Assembly: GCA_951406725.2 (NCBI GenBank)
Contig: OX597821.1
Location: forward strand, 114,204,001 to 114,268,000
DNA length: 64,000 nucleotides
Direction of reading: 5' to 3'
DNA from: Octopus vulgaris
Lineage: Eukaryota
The notes beneath the pieces were generated by a model, which saw only the letters and a program-made list of their open reading frames with translations, had not been told where the DNA came from and ran no database searches. This document shows positions 932 through 53,386 of this stretch, one piece after another (position 1 is the first letter of the stretch; each line of letters opens with the position of its first letter). Position numbers and translations under genes: made by a program.

Positions 932-1117
932 TAGGGAGAATTCACAAAAAAAAAACACAAGATGAAGGCAGGTGGTGTAGACAACAAACAGATGTATTAG
1001 TATAACGCTCGGGAAGCGAAAAAGTCTTTCACTTTTCGAGCCTAAGCTCTTCCACAGAAAGGAACACAGAAAGAAACAAGGAGAGAAAATAAAGATTGTG
1101 TAGCGGCTAGTGATCAC
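932..1117 (-). mobile_element. ~185-bp repeat with variant hammerhead-like motif (copy 1 of 3)
   Basis: Reverse complement of 19935-20125 and 43400-43583; motif at 1026-1061. Confidence 0.8.
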
Positions 1118-6372: not shown

Positions 6373-6615
6373 ATTTAAGAATGGTCATTTTGCCAGTTTA
6401 GCCAATAAAAATGCACGCACAATATATTACTATATATTACTAAATATTACAGGCACTCCCCCCCACACACACACACACGCACTAACTAAACATAGACACA
6501 CATAGAGGTATACGCATGCACAAATGAAGACACACAATAGGAATACAAAATACAAAAAAGCTGACCGTTAGTAAGGAGGGACACACAAATAAAAAAAAAA
6601 GAAAGCAAAGGACCA

Positions 6616-6666
6616 CTGATGAGGTCACAAGAGTGTGACGAAAGAACTCTGGCCGAAATAATATTA
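6616..6666 (+). ncRNA. Hammerhead-like motif with eroded stems I and III
   Basis: CTGATGA-GGTCA...TGGCC-GAAAT, with stem II pairing and internal GAGT/ACTC; stem I partner missing. Confidence 0.5.
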
Positions 6667-14775: not shown

Positions 14776-17487
14776 TTCAGTAGTTTTATTTTTATAGCGT
14801 GCTTTCACTTCACTACCGAGCGCAGCTCTGTGTGCCTTAGGTATGTGCTGTGATTTGTTGTGATGCTGTGATGGTTATTGTATGGAAAGTGTTCTGCGTA
14901 GGATGTGTGCAGTGCCTAGTAGAGCAATTTTCTGTATGTTATATGTGTTTGTAAGTCCTGGTGTTTTTGTTATGTATTTGTCTGAATATTTTTTTATCAT
15001 GCCTAATGCACCTACTATGATAGGAATTGTTTCTGTTTTTAGATTCCACATTCTGGTTACCTCTATTTCCAGGTCTTTGTATTTTGAAAGTTTCTCCATT
15101 TCTTTTAGAGACACGTTGTCATCTGCCGGTATTGATACATCAATTAGAAAGCATTTTTTTTTCTTCATGATCTCTGACAACTATATCTGGTCTGTTGGCC
15201 TTAATTTCTCTATCTGTGTGTATCGGCATATCCCAGAGTATGGTTGCTTTCTCGTTTTCTGTGACCTTTTCTGGTGTGTGCCTATACCATCTTTTTTCTC
15301 TTGTTATTCCATAATGTTGGCATAGCTTCCAGTGTATGTAGGTTCCAACTCTGTCATGTCTGTGAATATATTCCTTCTTAGCCAGGACTGGGCAGCCAGA
15401 GATAATATGATTTATTGTTTCTTGTCCATCTCCACATATTCTGCAGTTACTTGTTATATTTCTTTTCATTACATGTTTTTGGTAATTTCTGGTGGGGAGG
15501 CTTTGGTCTTGTGCTGCAATTAAAAATCCCTCTGTCTCTGCTTTGAGTTCTGAGCTTCTCAACCATTGCTGGGATTTTTCTTTGTCTATTTCTTTTGCGT
15601 TTAGTTTAGTCCAGTATTTACCATGAAGGGGATTTTCTTGCCATCGTTTTGTCATGGTTCGTTGCTGTTCTATTTTTAGTTTGGATTTCATTTGTTTTAT
15701 AGCTTTTGTTGTTTCTTCATCTTCTTCTTCTTCTTTTTCATATTTATTAGGTGGTATGATTTCTTGTTTGTATTTGTCAGCTTCCTTAAATACTGAGAAC
15801 AGTTTTTTGTTTTTCTCGTGTTTTGCCGCTATTTGTATCAGTTTTCCTTCCTTCTGAAGTAGATATTTTTGCAGTCCTATGGTGGTTATTTTATAGTAGT
15901 ATTCCAGCTGTATAAGGCCTCTACCACCTTCTATACGTTGTATATATAGTCTTTCTATGTCAGATTTTGGGTGATGCATCCTAGATCCTGTCATTATTTT
16001 TCTTGTTTTCCTATCTATTTTGGTCAGTTCATTTAGTGTCCAGTCAAGGATATTGTAGCTGTAACTTATAACTGGGACAGCTAAAGTGTTAATACCTGTT
16101 ATCTCGTTTTTAGCATTGAGCTCTGTTTTTAGTATTGATCTAACTTGTCTATAATATTCTTTTTTTATTTTCTCTTTCATTTGTGTGTGTTGTGTCTTAT
16201 CTAGTTCATGGATTCCTAAGTATTTGTAAGTTTAGCTTTGGTCTAATTCTTTTATTTCATTGGTTTTATCTAGTTTGATGTTGCTGCTCTTAACTAGTTT
16301 TCCTCTTTTCATGGTTACTTTGGCGCATTTTTCTAATCCAAATTTCATATCTATTTCTTTGGTAAATCCAATGAACTGTCTTTAATAGTGTTTCCAGCTG
16401 TTTGTCATTTGCAGCGTATAGTTTTAGGTCATCCATATATAAAAGGTGGCTGATCGTTTTGCCGTAACATTTATATCCGCATCCAGTTCTATTTAGCATA
16501 TCAGATAGAGGTGACAGTGCCAAGCAGAAAAGGAGTGGAGAGAGCGTGTCTCCCTGGAATATTCCTCTTCTAATAGTGATGGCTTTGGTTTTCATGAGTC
16601 CCTCCTTTGTTTGGAGGTGTAGGACTGTCTGCCATTTATTCATAGAGTGTCCTATGTATTTTATAATGGTTGGTGCTACTTTGTTAATGGCTAGTGTTTC
16701 GAGGATCCATGTGTGGGGGATGCTATCAAACGCCTTTTTGTAGTCGATCCAGGCCATACTGAGGCCTTTCTTCTTTCTGTGGCTGTCTTCAGTTATGGCT
16801 TTATTAATCATTAGTTGATCTTTACAGCCATATGAGCCTTTGAGGCATCCTTTCTGCTCTTCTGGAAACAGGTTGTTTTCGTCCAGGTGCTTGTTCAACC
16901 TTTGCGATATCACTGCAGTAAATGCCTTGTACATTGTAGGGAGACAGGTTATTGGTCTGTAATTTTCTGGTTTTGCTGTCTCATTTGATTTGGGAATTAA
17001 GATGGTTTTCCCCTTCGTGAGCCATTCAGGCATTGTCTCTGGTTCTGCTAGTATGTTGTTAAAGTTTTCAGCCAGCTTTTTGTGCATTCCTGTTAGATAT
17101 TTCAACCAGAAGTTGGGGATCTTGTCATGCCCAGGTGCTTTCCAGTTGCTTAGTCTTTGCAGTGCCTGGGTGACCTCTTCAGTTGTTATGAGGGTCCAAA
17201 GTTGCTCAGATGCTGAGTTTGTTGTTTTAATACTCCTTTTTTTTTGGTTGTTCGTTCGCCGACCATATCTCTCTCCAGAATTCTTCCACTTCTTCTGCCG
17301 TTGGTGCTGCAGTGATTTCTTTTTTTTTTTTTTCCAAGTTCTTGGTAGAACTTTTTGAGGTTGGAGTTGAACTTTTTGTTTTGTTCAAAGAAGCGCTGGC
17401 GTTTCTCGTACCGGCGGATCCTTTGTGCTTTGGCAAGGATATCTTGCTTCAGCTTTTCTTTTATCTCAGGTAAATCTTTTTCTGTGA
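14776..17487 (-). mobile_element. R4/Dong-clade non-LTR retrotransposon, 5'-truncated, inserted in (TAA)n
   Basis: RT motifs NYRPITCL, WIDYKKAFDSI, GIFQGDTLSPLLF and YMDD; CCHC CRICG...HIISGC; RHD; RLE RPDIVV..LIDVS..KYKDL; TAA tracts at both ends. Confidence 0.93.
14875..17487 (-). pseudogene. Disrupted RT-zinc knuckle-RLE polyprotein
   Basis: Split over ORFs 17227-17436, 16290-17105, 15140-16180 and 14875-15180 by frameshifts (several at homopolymers) and an in-frame TAA near 16232 (QS*TYKYLG). Confidence 0.85.
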
Positions 17488-19454: not shown

Positions 19455-19664
19455 TTTCATATAGGTTTTCCAAACATCTTAGAGAGTGTAAATATATTTA
19501 TAAAGTTGTAGATGTGAGCTCCAGAAACTTGAAGCAGGATTCCAAGCAGACCATATATGCATATATGGTCTGCTTGGAATCCTGCTTCAAGTTTCTGGAG
19601 CTCACATCTACAACTTTATAAATATATTTACACTCTCTAAGATGTTTGGAAAACCTATATGAAC

Positions 19665-19746: not shown

Positions 19747-19934
19747 ATTACCGATCCATTCTTGCTGCTTATTTTTTGGTTATAATCACCCCACATCATT
19801 TTATGGGTAATACCATAAAAAATTCTTGTGCATCTAAGTTAAGTACCATATTCATTTGAATCTAAATTGTTTTGCTGAAATTATATATATATATATATAT
19901 ATACATATGTATATATGTATATATATACGATAGA

Positions 19935-20121
19935 TCGTCGCCATGATTGATCGTTAGCCACTACAGGCATTTTTTTCTCTCCTTGTTTTTTTTGTGTACC
20001 TTTCTGTAGAAGAGCGTAGGCTCGAAACGTAAAAGACTTTTCTATTCCTGAGCGTTATACTAATACATCTGTTTGTTTTGTACACCACCTGTCTTCGTCT
20101 TTTGTTTTTTTCGTAAACTCT

Positions 20122-20125
<4 letters not shown>
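19935..20125 (+). mobile_element. ~185-bp (TA)n-flanked repeat with variant hammerhead-like motif (copy 2 of 3)
   Basis: Motif at 20000-20035: CTTT-CTGTAGA-A-GAGC GTAG GCTC-GAAAC-GTA-AAAG; TA-rich tracts on both sides. Confidence 0.8.
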
Positions 20126-20207
<82 letters not shown>

Positions 20208-33027: not shown

Positions 33028-33056
33028 CAACAACAACAACAATAATAACAACAACA

Positions 33057-33580
33057 AAAAGAAAAAGATAGTATAGGCACACCCCAGAAAAGGTCACAGA
33101 AAATGAGAAAGCAGCCATACTCTGGGATATGCCAATACACACAAATCGAGAAACCAAGGCTAATAGATCGGATATAGTTGTCAGAGATAGGTAAAATAAA
33201 AGGATGCCTTCTAATTGATGTATCAATACCAACAGATGACAACGCTTCTCTAAAAGAAATTGAGAAACTTTCAAAATACAAAGACCTAGAAATAGAGGTA
33301 ACTTGTACGTTGAATCTAAAAATAGAAACAATTCCTATCATAATAGGTGCATTAGGCATAATAAAAAAATATTCAGACAAATACATAACAAAAACACCAA
33401 GACTTGCAAGTATATATAGCATACAGAAAATAGCACAACTAGGCACCGCACAAATCCTAGTAAAATACTTTCAATATAATAAAAATAAGAGCATCACAAC
33501 AAACCACAGCACATGCCCAAGGTATTTAGAGCTGCGCTCGGTAGTGCAGTGAAATCACGTAATAAAAATAAGACTTCTAA
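33057..33580 (+). mobile_element. Dong LINE 3' end (diverged copy)
   Basis: RHTPEKVTENEKAAILWD..LIDVSIP..KLSKYKDL plus homologous 3' UTR; follows a (TAA)/(CAA) tract. Confidence 0.88.
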
Positions 33581-43399: not shown

Positions 43400-43579
43400 T
43401 TCGCCATGATAGATCGCCGGCCAAGAAAGCTTCTTTTTTTATTTTCTCTCCCTGTTTATTTCTGTCGAAGAGCGTAGGATCGAAATGTAAAAGATTTTCT
43501 CATTTCCCGAGCGTCGTTAAAATAATACATCTGTTTATTGTTTACACACCCGTCTTCGTCTTTTGTTTTTTGTAAATTC

Positions 43580-43583
<4 letters not shown>
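43400..43583 (+). mobile_element. ~185-bp TA-flanked repeat with variant hammerhead-like motif (copy 3 of 3)
   Basis: 43458-43493 ATTT-CTGTCGA-A-GAGC GTAG GATC-GAAAT-GTA-AAAG. Confidence 0.8.
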
Positions 43584-43611
<28 letters not shown>

Positions 43612-43614
<3 letters not shown>

Positions 43615-43976
43615 TCGTGGAACTCTGTCGGTTACAACAACGAAGGTTCCAGTTGATCCGATCAACGGAACAGCCTGCTCGTGAAATTAACGTACAAGTG
43701 GCTGAGCACTCCACAGACACGTCTACCCTTAAAGTAGTTCTCGGGTAGATTCAGCGTGACAAGGCTGGTCCTTTGAAATACAGGTACAACAGAAACAGGA
43801 AGAAAGTGTGGGAGAAAGTTGTGGTGAAAGAGTACAGCAGGGTTCGGCAACCCCACCAGCCGGAGACTCGTGGAGCTTTAGGTGTTTTCGCTCAATAAAC
43901 ATCCACAATGCCCGGCGTGGGAATCGAAACCGTGATCCTACGACCGCGAGTTCGCTGCCCCAACAACCATTGCGCT
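43612..43976 (-). mobile_element. SINE family C, near full length
   Basis: Reverse complement of 60350-60706. Confidence 0.88.
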
Positions 43977-43981
43977 TCCAC

Positions 43982-52730: not shown

Positions 52731-53386
52731 AAAAAAAGTCTGAAACCATTGATCCAGGAGTTACATGGTAAATGATTTTATTTTTCATTCCCTTCAATTT
52801 TTATCTTTGATAGTGGTTCGGAATTTAACTGCCCTTTCTAGCGTGTAGGTAGTCCCATGATGGCTACCTCTTAAGTGTTTAAATATACACTGTATTTATA
52901 TGAATAAGATATAGTCTATTGACTAAATTTTTACACGCTAAGCCACTGGTAATTGAAACTTATATTTCCGATTACCCTTTGATAATATTAATTATTGATA
53001 ATTTTGGGGGATAATTTTCGAAAGGAAAAAGCCAGAATTTTTATTTACTGCCGACAGAGGGCTGCGCTTGCATGGTAGTTTTGAAAAATTAGAATGTATA
53101 AGCACAGAGCATATACTGGATTGCCTCGTATATATATATTTAATCTAAGGTGTACATGCTGAAGAAGGCTTCGCCCAGCAAATTATTTTATTTGCTAAAA
53201 AAGCCTGAAACCATTGGTCCAGGAGTTAGATGGTAAATGTTTTCATTTTTCATTCACTTTGATTTCTATCTTTAATAGTGGTTCGGAATTTAACTGTCCT
53301 TTCTAGCGTGTAGGTAGTCCTATGATGGCTAGGCCACAGGTAATGGAAACTTCAAATATTTTCGATTACCCTTTGATAATATCAAT

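What the first reader, a model, noticed from the sequence alone, without database searches (positions are those of the whole stretch)
20000..20035. Variant hammerhead core CUGUNGA-A in a three-copy repeat family
The three copies read CTGTGGA (1051-1057, minus), CTGTAGA and CTGTCGA (43462). The variable base falls exactly at N7, U replaces the conserved A6 in all three, and an extra A precedes a 4-bp stem II (GAGC/GCTC). In the best copy GAAAC-GTA has no stem III loop (self-complementary ACGT), and CTTT/AAAG forms stem I. An extra A after A9 is known from the CChMVd hammerhead. A loopless stem III could only pair intermolecularly, implying an obligate dimer. This is a candidate new HHR variant, or a fixed dead ribozyme in a successful repeat.
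Basis: partly seen in the sequence, partly recalled or inferred. Interest (0 to 1): 0.75.

Follow-up and report, generated by a model that had tools for sequence, protein, structure and literature searches.

The report
Penelope retrotransposon hammerhead with fixed A6U
This is the small hammerhead-ribozyme motif at the end of a young, very abundant Penelope-like jumping gene, a known arrangement, but the whole family carries U instead of the normally fixed A at core position 6 and likely still uses it as a slowed self-cutting RNA.

Summary
The copies are 5'-truncated 3' ends (pseudo-LTRs) of a Penelope-like retrotransposon (RT, CX4CxxC linker, C-terminal GIY-YIG; Neptune/Nematis type). The genome holds 17,610 exact matches to the U6 25-mer. 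Of 14 long-ORF loci I selected, 12 carry the identical U6 motif in both pLTRs.

The extra A, the loopless palindromic stem III and the dimer model are already published for PLE minimal hammerheads (PMC4209133). Only U6 departs from that consensus. Two other families in this genome have A6, so U6 is likely derived.

In 83 copies sampled without regard to the core, U6 occurs in 80 of 82. No constrained hammerhead position varies between lineages (0 of 30, against 20 of 65 flank positions, p=2e-4). Only N7 and H17 vary, the two positions the hammerhead consensus leaves free. The motif therefore stayed under selection after U6 arose. Selection for U6 itself is not shown.

Best reading: a slowed, dimer-dependent, possibly protein-assisted ribozyme. 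The main rival is a non-cleaving structural element. Cleavage is untested.

The parts
19937..20124 (+). 5'-truncated 3' end (pseudo-LTR) of a Penelope-like retrotransposon; N7=A subfamily
   Evidence: 94-97% identical hits genome-wide with shared 3' end and variable 5' end; homologous longer copies lead upstream into a GIY-YIG frame
20000..20035 (+). minimal type I hammerhead motif with U6; intact copy
   Evidence: sequence; matches the PMC4209133 consensus except at position 6
20000..20003 (+). stem I, 5' strand (pairs with 20032-20035)
   Evidence: pairs kept in 88-99% of 136 family copies; outer pair C-G here, G-C in 3 of 5 family B copies
20004..20011 (+). core C3 U4 G5 U6 N7 G8 A9 plus extra A; U6 at 20007
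   Evidence: U6 in 80 of 82 core-blind copies; N7 T24 A23 C19 G16
20012..20023 (+). stem-loop II, 4 bp, G10.1-C11.1, 4-nt loop
   Evidence: sequence; centroid fold; same stem with 3-nt loop in family B
20024..20031 (+). G12 A13 A14, palindromic ACGU (loopless stem III), H17; predicted cut after 20031
   Evidence: sequence; H17 A64 U15 C1 G1; cut site inferred from hammerhead numbering
20032..20035 (+). stem I, 3' strand
20125..20195 (.). (TA)n microsatellite at the 3' junction, likely the insertion target; a TA-rich run also lies at 19882-19927
   Evidence: the 14 long-ORF loci end at one site followed by TA-rich sequence
932..1116 (-). older copy (N7=G), motif at 1026-1061, decayed: A15.2, G17
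43401..43587 (+). older copy (N7=C), motif at 43458-43493, decayed: stem II broken, T15.2

Best explanation
The motif is the minimal type I hammerhead in the pseudo-LTR of a young Penelope-like retrotransposon family that has U at core position 6 throughout, and it likely works as a slowed ribozyme that would cut after position 17 only when two copies pair through their ACGU palindromes. SHOWN: host element, position in both pLTRs, near-fixation of U6, and constraint on all hammerhead positions except N7 and H17. PREDICTED: U6 lets U4-G5-U6 pair with the stem III strand, holding the single copy in an off fold. INFERRED: the two pLTR motifs about 4.5 kb apart in one transcript, or two transcripts, form the dimer, possibly helped by the element's protein. 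INFERRED: because insertions span the motif and end about 100 nt beyond the cut site, the template is uncut or re-ligated RNA, so a slow ribozyme is tolerated and may even raise copy number. The window copies are solo remnants and likely do nothing.
For: Host: GIY-YIG frame upstream of U6 copies; Pfam RVT_1 above cutoff, GIY-YIG just below; 13 of 14 selected loci have open frames of 1065-1202 aa and 12 of 14 have the identical U6 motif on both sides; 12 proteins 98.4-99.7% identical over 963 aa. Constraint: 0 of 30 constrained positions lineage-variable against 20 of 65 flank positions, Fisher p=2.4e-4, CpG decay excluded. On a flank-only tree of 77 copies, internal-branch changes were N7 7, H17 3, position 6 0, the other 34 motif positions 7 in total (6 at CpG sites), flanks 181 over 95 sites. 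H17 moved between A and U, not G. Stems differ but pair in families B and C. P(6-A15.1 pair) was 0.41-0.98 in 5 U6 fragments and 0.00 in 4 natural A6 fragments. A natural A6C hammerhead cleaves slowly (PMC3088659; PMC7151607). A PLE hammerhead was protein-assisted and dispensable for insertion in vitro (PMC11167929).
Against: No cleavage evidence: no raw RNA reads were available. In a full mutant scan, single mutants of the CUGA turn had low activity (PMC9901934), and minimal PLE hammerheads are weak even with A6, so U6 may bring the rate near zero. U6's own constancy is not significant: 25 of 95 flank sites also show no internal change. No compensating change for U6 was found. The predicted off fold could equally mean an inactive motif. 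Flank variability is inflated by T-runs and truncated ends. Within the U6 family the stems are invariant, so there is no covariation there.
Confidence: 0.55

Rival explanations
1. The motif no longer cleaves but is kept as an RNA structure or sequence that the element needs, such as a binding site for its RT-endonuclease or part of the pLTR promoter.
For: A6 is normally needed. Cleavage was dispensable for insertion by another PLE in vitro, and whole PLE clades lack the motif (PMC8557442). Loop II is also invariant, as a protein contact would be. U6 favours a rod-like fold.
Against: The only free positions are the two that catalysis leaves free (chance 1 in 630 if two of 36 were picked at random), and H17 avoided G. 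A plain binding or promoter site need not follow that pattern.
Confidence: 0.3
2. U6 is a near full-rate variant, tuned to other conditions such as Mn2+ or the element's protein.
For: A6C hammerheads cleave well in Mn2+ (PMC7151607). The family went through all four N7 states without an A6 lineage taking over.
Against: No compensating feature was seen, and there are no rate data. A6 reversion may simply be neutral.
Confidence: 0.09
3. A dead ribozyme carried along without selection; similarity is only common descent.
For: The subfamilies are still 75-97% alike, and many flank sites are also unchanged.
Against: Motif positions are far less variable between lineages than flanks.
Confidence: 0.06

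Closest known systems
Minimal type I hammerheads (min-HHR) of metazoan Penelope-like elements (Cervera and de la Pena 2014, PMC4209133)
   Same: In both pLTRs; U-rich 5' flank; extra nucleotide between 9 and 10.1; G10.1-C11.1; palindromic 15.2-16.2 with no loop III; short stem I; thousands of solo copies; dimer model.
   Different: U at position 6 against the consensus CUGANGAH; none of the CUGU hits in that paper's supplement was a core. Its reported core variant is U3-A8.
Neptune / Nematis clades of EN+ Penelope-like elements (as described in PMC8557442)
   Same: Single ORF, RT then CX2-5CxxC linker then C-terminal GIY-YIG; pLTRs; partial tandems and inverted truncated copies; microsatellite insertion bias.
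   Different: Neptune versus Nematis was not resolved here (no named reference sequences). I found no description of this family in the searches made.
Bcep176 A6C hammerhead (PMC3088659, PMC7151607)
   Same: Natural change at position 6 of the core.
   Different: C rather than U, a single phage sequence; here the change is fixed across a retrotransposon family of more than 17,000 copies and is not yet assayed.
Non-LTR retrozymes (10.64898/2026.07.22.740005, first fifth read)
   Same: Type I hammerhead repeats derived from PLE pLTRs.
   Different: Retrozymes are non-coding tandem arrays; these copies are dispersed truncations of a coding element.
Families B and C in the same genome (this work)
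   Same: Same minimal architecture; B shares the stem II sequence and pLTR layout.
   Different: A6 in 97 of 100 listed B matches and 19 of 20 held C copies, which were mostly fetched with an A6 pattern.

Membership tests
PLE minimal type I hammerhead | Located in the pLTRs of a Penelope-like element | tested here: met
   12 of 14 selected long-ORF loci have it on both sides of the ORF, 4449-4573 nt apart
PLE minimal type I hammerhead | Stems I and II, G10.1-C11.1, extra nucleotide after 9 | tested here: met
PLE minimal type I hammerhead | Palindromic 15.1-16.1 without loop III, UH cut site | tested here: met
   ACGU then A or U in 79 of 81 copies at position 17
Hammerhead ribozyme (consensus core) | C3 U4 G5, G8 A9, G12 A13 A14 | tested here: met
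   89-100% in 84 copies, the lowest being G12 at a CpG site
Hammerhead ribozyme (consensus core) | A6 | tested here: not met
   U 17,610, A 226, C or G 497 exact matches
Hammerhead ribozyme (consensus core) | Self-cleavage after H17 | not testable with these tools
   only assembled contigs, no raw RNA reads
EN+ Penelope-like element | Single ORF with RT and C-terminal GIY-YIG | tested here: met
   RVT_1 E 1e-7 above cutoff; GIY-YIG E 4e-4, just below cutoff; relatives share these Pfam families
EN+ Penelope-like element | pLTRs, 5' truncation, partial tandems and inverted copies | tested here: met
Neptune/Nematis | CX2-5CxxC linker between RT and endonuclease | tested here: met
   C-x4-C-x2-C before the GIY-YIG domain in P0002
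Neptune (as against Nematis) | Placement in an RT tree with named references | not tested
   no named reference sequences among the hits

The most novel reading that the evidence does not exclude
U6 is an adaptive self-lock. It turns the hammerhead into a switch that stays folded shut as a monomer and opens only on dimerisation or on binding the element's own protein. This balances cutting against keeping uncut templates, and helped the family outgrow its A6 sister. It would be a natural, active A6U hammerhead, amplified to tens of thousands of copies.
Probability: 0.2. Interest if true: 0.75.

Novelty: new variant of a known kind. Interest (0 to 1): 0.48.

Why it matters
What PLE hammerheads do is unsettled: they cleave poorly, one was dispensable for insertion in vitro, and some clades lack them. 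Here a recently active family has lost a consensus core base yet kept every other constrained position through a succession of subfamilies, and an A6 family with the same stem II sits in the same genome as a natural control. Assaying the two would show directly whether cleavage or structure is what is selected. A6-based descriptors would miss such families, so elements scored as lacking hammerheads may hide similar variants.

Tried and rejected
Rfam: no hammerhead match seen; uninformative, since canonical A6 minimal motifs were missed too. Single-strand folding z-scores were not significant for the U6 copies. Expression and cleavage: no RNA holder listed; contigs cannot show ends. A separate large A6 lineage inside the family: not supported. 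A6 is 226 against about 109 T-to-A matches at control position U4 (30 of 100 listed, of 363), and the single A6 copy in the tree nests among U6 copies; a small A6 sublineage is not excluded, since position 6 shows about twice as many non-U matches as position 4 (723 against 363). Other independent U6 families: the 100 of 644 matches listed looked mostly like decayed copies of this family or of family C. Full ORF of family B: only one 50-aa fragment (58% identity) in 30 loci, so its sister status rests mainly on pLTR similarity. No ORF remnant of the element in the window. Retrozyme or SINE reading: rejected, since copies are truncations of a coding element. Earlier scan findings: none returned. 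A natural A6U hammerhead was not found in searches or in finds 34, 66, 82-84. Lunse et al. 2017 (PMC5785218), the most relevant paper on PLE hammerhead variants, was not held; I saw only its title, and it may already report such cores.

Full report
Observation. The motif at 20000-20035 has stem I, the core CUGUAGA plus an extra A, a 4-bp stem II with a 4-nt loop, GAAA, the palindrome ACGU and A17; the predicted cut is after 20031. It lies in a unit of about 190 nt between TA runs, with two older copies in the window (84% and 77% identical). Only the middle copy is intact.

The family. The window comes from a 2.8-Gb genome. The U6 25-mer has 17,610 exact matches, against 226 with A6 and 497 with C or G; reversed-pattern controls gave 0. 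A downstream anchor motif has 27,221 matches (control 5). Copies mostly share a 3' end next to TA runs and vary at the 5' end, the signature of target-primed reverse transcription with truncation (established knowledge).

The host element. Longer copies continue upstream into a GIY-YIG frame. Searching the genome with that peptide gave 150 scored matches at 96-100% identity. I fetched 14 of them, chosen for long open frames or tandem layout. Thirteen have frames of 1065-1202 aa, and 12 carry the identical U6 motif on both sides, 4449-4573 nt apart. Twelve proteins are 98.4-99.7% identical over 963 aa, so this subfamily is very young. [quoted passage not shown] That layout defines the Neptune and Nematis clades in PMC8557442 (passages); I did not separate the two. 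All 14 loci end 102 nt past the predicted cut, where the element's own sequence continues TATATAT, matching the TA target. The window copy belongs to an older subfamily (N7=A) for which I did not fetch a full-length copy.

What is already known. Cervera and de la Pena 2014 (PMC4209133; parts 1-3 of 4 read; supplement passages) define this architecture: extra nucleotide after 9, G10.1-C11.1, palindromic loopless stem III, weak cleavage only as dimer or trimer. The motif fits their consensus except at position 6. The same genome has 14,122 matches to the A6 version of a relaxed pattern. They include family B, with the same stem II and a similar pLTR (4,844 matches, A6 in 97 of 100 listed), and family C. 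U6 is therefore likely derived.

Is it under selection? I sampled by the downstream anchor, blind to the core: 96 of the first 100 listed matches on one contig, of which 84 reach the core and one was dropped as an inverted duplicate. U6 is in 80 of 82 with a base there. N7 is T24 A23 C19 G16 and H17 is A64 U15 C1 G1. At a 10% minor-allele threshold, CpG decay excluded, 0 of 30 constrained positions vary against 20 of 65 flank positions (p=2.4e-4; 5e-5 and 2e-3 at 8% and 15%). A tree built on flanks only (77 copies, midpoint root, supports not examined) shows a ladder of subfamilies. Internal-branch changes were 7 at N7, 3 at H17, 0 at position 6, 7 over the other 34 motif positions (6 of them at CpG sites) and 181 over 95 flank sites. 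Flank counts are inflated by T-runs and truncated ends. The motif was thus constrained in hammerhead fashion after U6 became fixed. Selection on U6 itself is not shown, since 25 of 95 flank sites were equally still. A6 copies are of the order expected from decay, about twice the control position U4. Stems are invariant within the family; covariation appears only between families (only 5 B copies). Contigs from four runs under four other coded organism labels showed no other letter at position 6 above 3%, while N7 and H17 varied. This is weak: the labels are coded and two runs had about 50 contigs.

How it likely works. A6 matters: the natural A6C hammerhead is slow in Mg2+ (PMC3088659 passages) but good in Mn2+ (PMC7151607 part 1 of 4), and CUGA-turn single mutants were of low activity (PMC9901934 passages). 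Folding 38-nt natural fragments predicts that U6 pairs with A15.1 (P 0.41-0.98 in 5 fragments; 0.00 in 4 A6 fragments), tying up the core and the palindrome in the monomer. Since insertions span the motif and run about 100 nt past the cut, the template must be uncut or re-ligated (inference). That agrees with PMC11167929 (passages), where a PLE hammerhead needed protein to cleave and was not needed for insertion in vitro. I therefore favour a slowed, dimer-dependent and possibly protein-assisted ribozyme (0.55) over a non-cleaving structural element (0.30), a full-rate variant (0.09) and an unselected relic (0.06). No step of catalysis was tested here.

Novelty. The architecture and host type are known. 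A family-fixed natural A6U was not found in my searches (finds 34, 66, 80, 82-84). The key paper on PLE hammerhead variants (Lunse 2017) was not available and was seen only as a reference and through a review passage (PMC6765202). One supplement file of PMC4209133 was not searched, and figure images were not visible. Other papers seen: 10.64898/2026.07.22.740005 (part 1 of 5) and PMC10085705 (passages). Hammerhead numbering and the rule that G17 blocks cleavage are partly recalled. Verdict: new variant of a known kind, interest 0.48.

Noticed in passing
window 6609-6660 (+): A canonical A6 hammerhead-like motif of another kind: 3-bp or longer stem I, CUGAUGA plus extra G, 5-bp stem II, GAAA, tiny stem III, C17.
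   Followed up: no
window 53151-53225 (+): Another hammerhead-like motif with A6, long stem II and a short hairpin stem III, next to a TA run; stem I is weak.
   Followed up: no
window 19500-19619: A perfect palindrome with 60-nt arms and no loop, 320 nt upstream of the finding; possibly a fold-back or MITE-like insertion.
   Followed up: no
window 14899-15308 and 33050-33459: Two inverted copies of a 410-nt repeat, 88% alike.
   Followed up: no
window 43614-43980: A different repeat between TA runs directly after the third copy; its end looks like a reversed tRNA-derived head (by eye), and similar sequence lies near L124:8340.
   Followed up: no
family-wide, position N7: N7 changed more often than nearly any flank site (17 changes, 7 internal) and passed through all four bases; rate tuning or escape from small-RNA silencing are untested ideas.
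   Followed up: partly
L257-L284: Family C: an abundant A6 minimal hammerhead with a longer stem II and a different stem I; it makes up most of the listed A6 matches. Host element not identified.
   Followed up: partly
L046, L061/L062, L078, L213: Closely spaced inverted pairs of truncated copies, as described for Penelope-like insertions.
   Followed up: no
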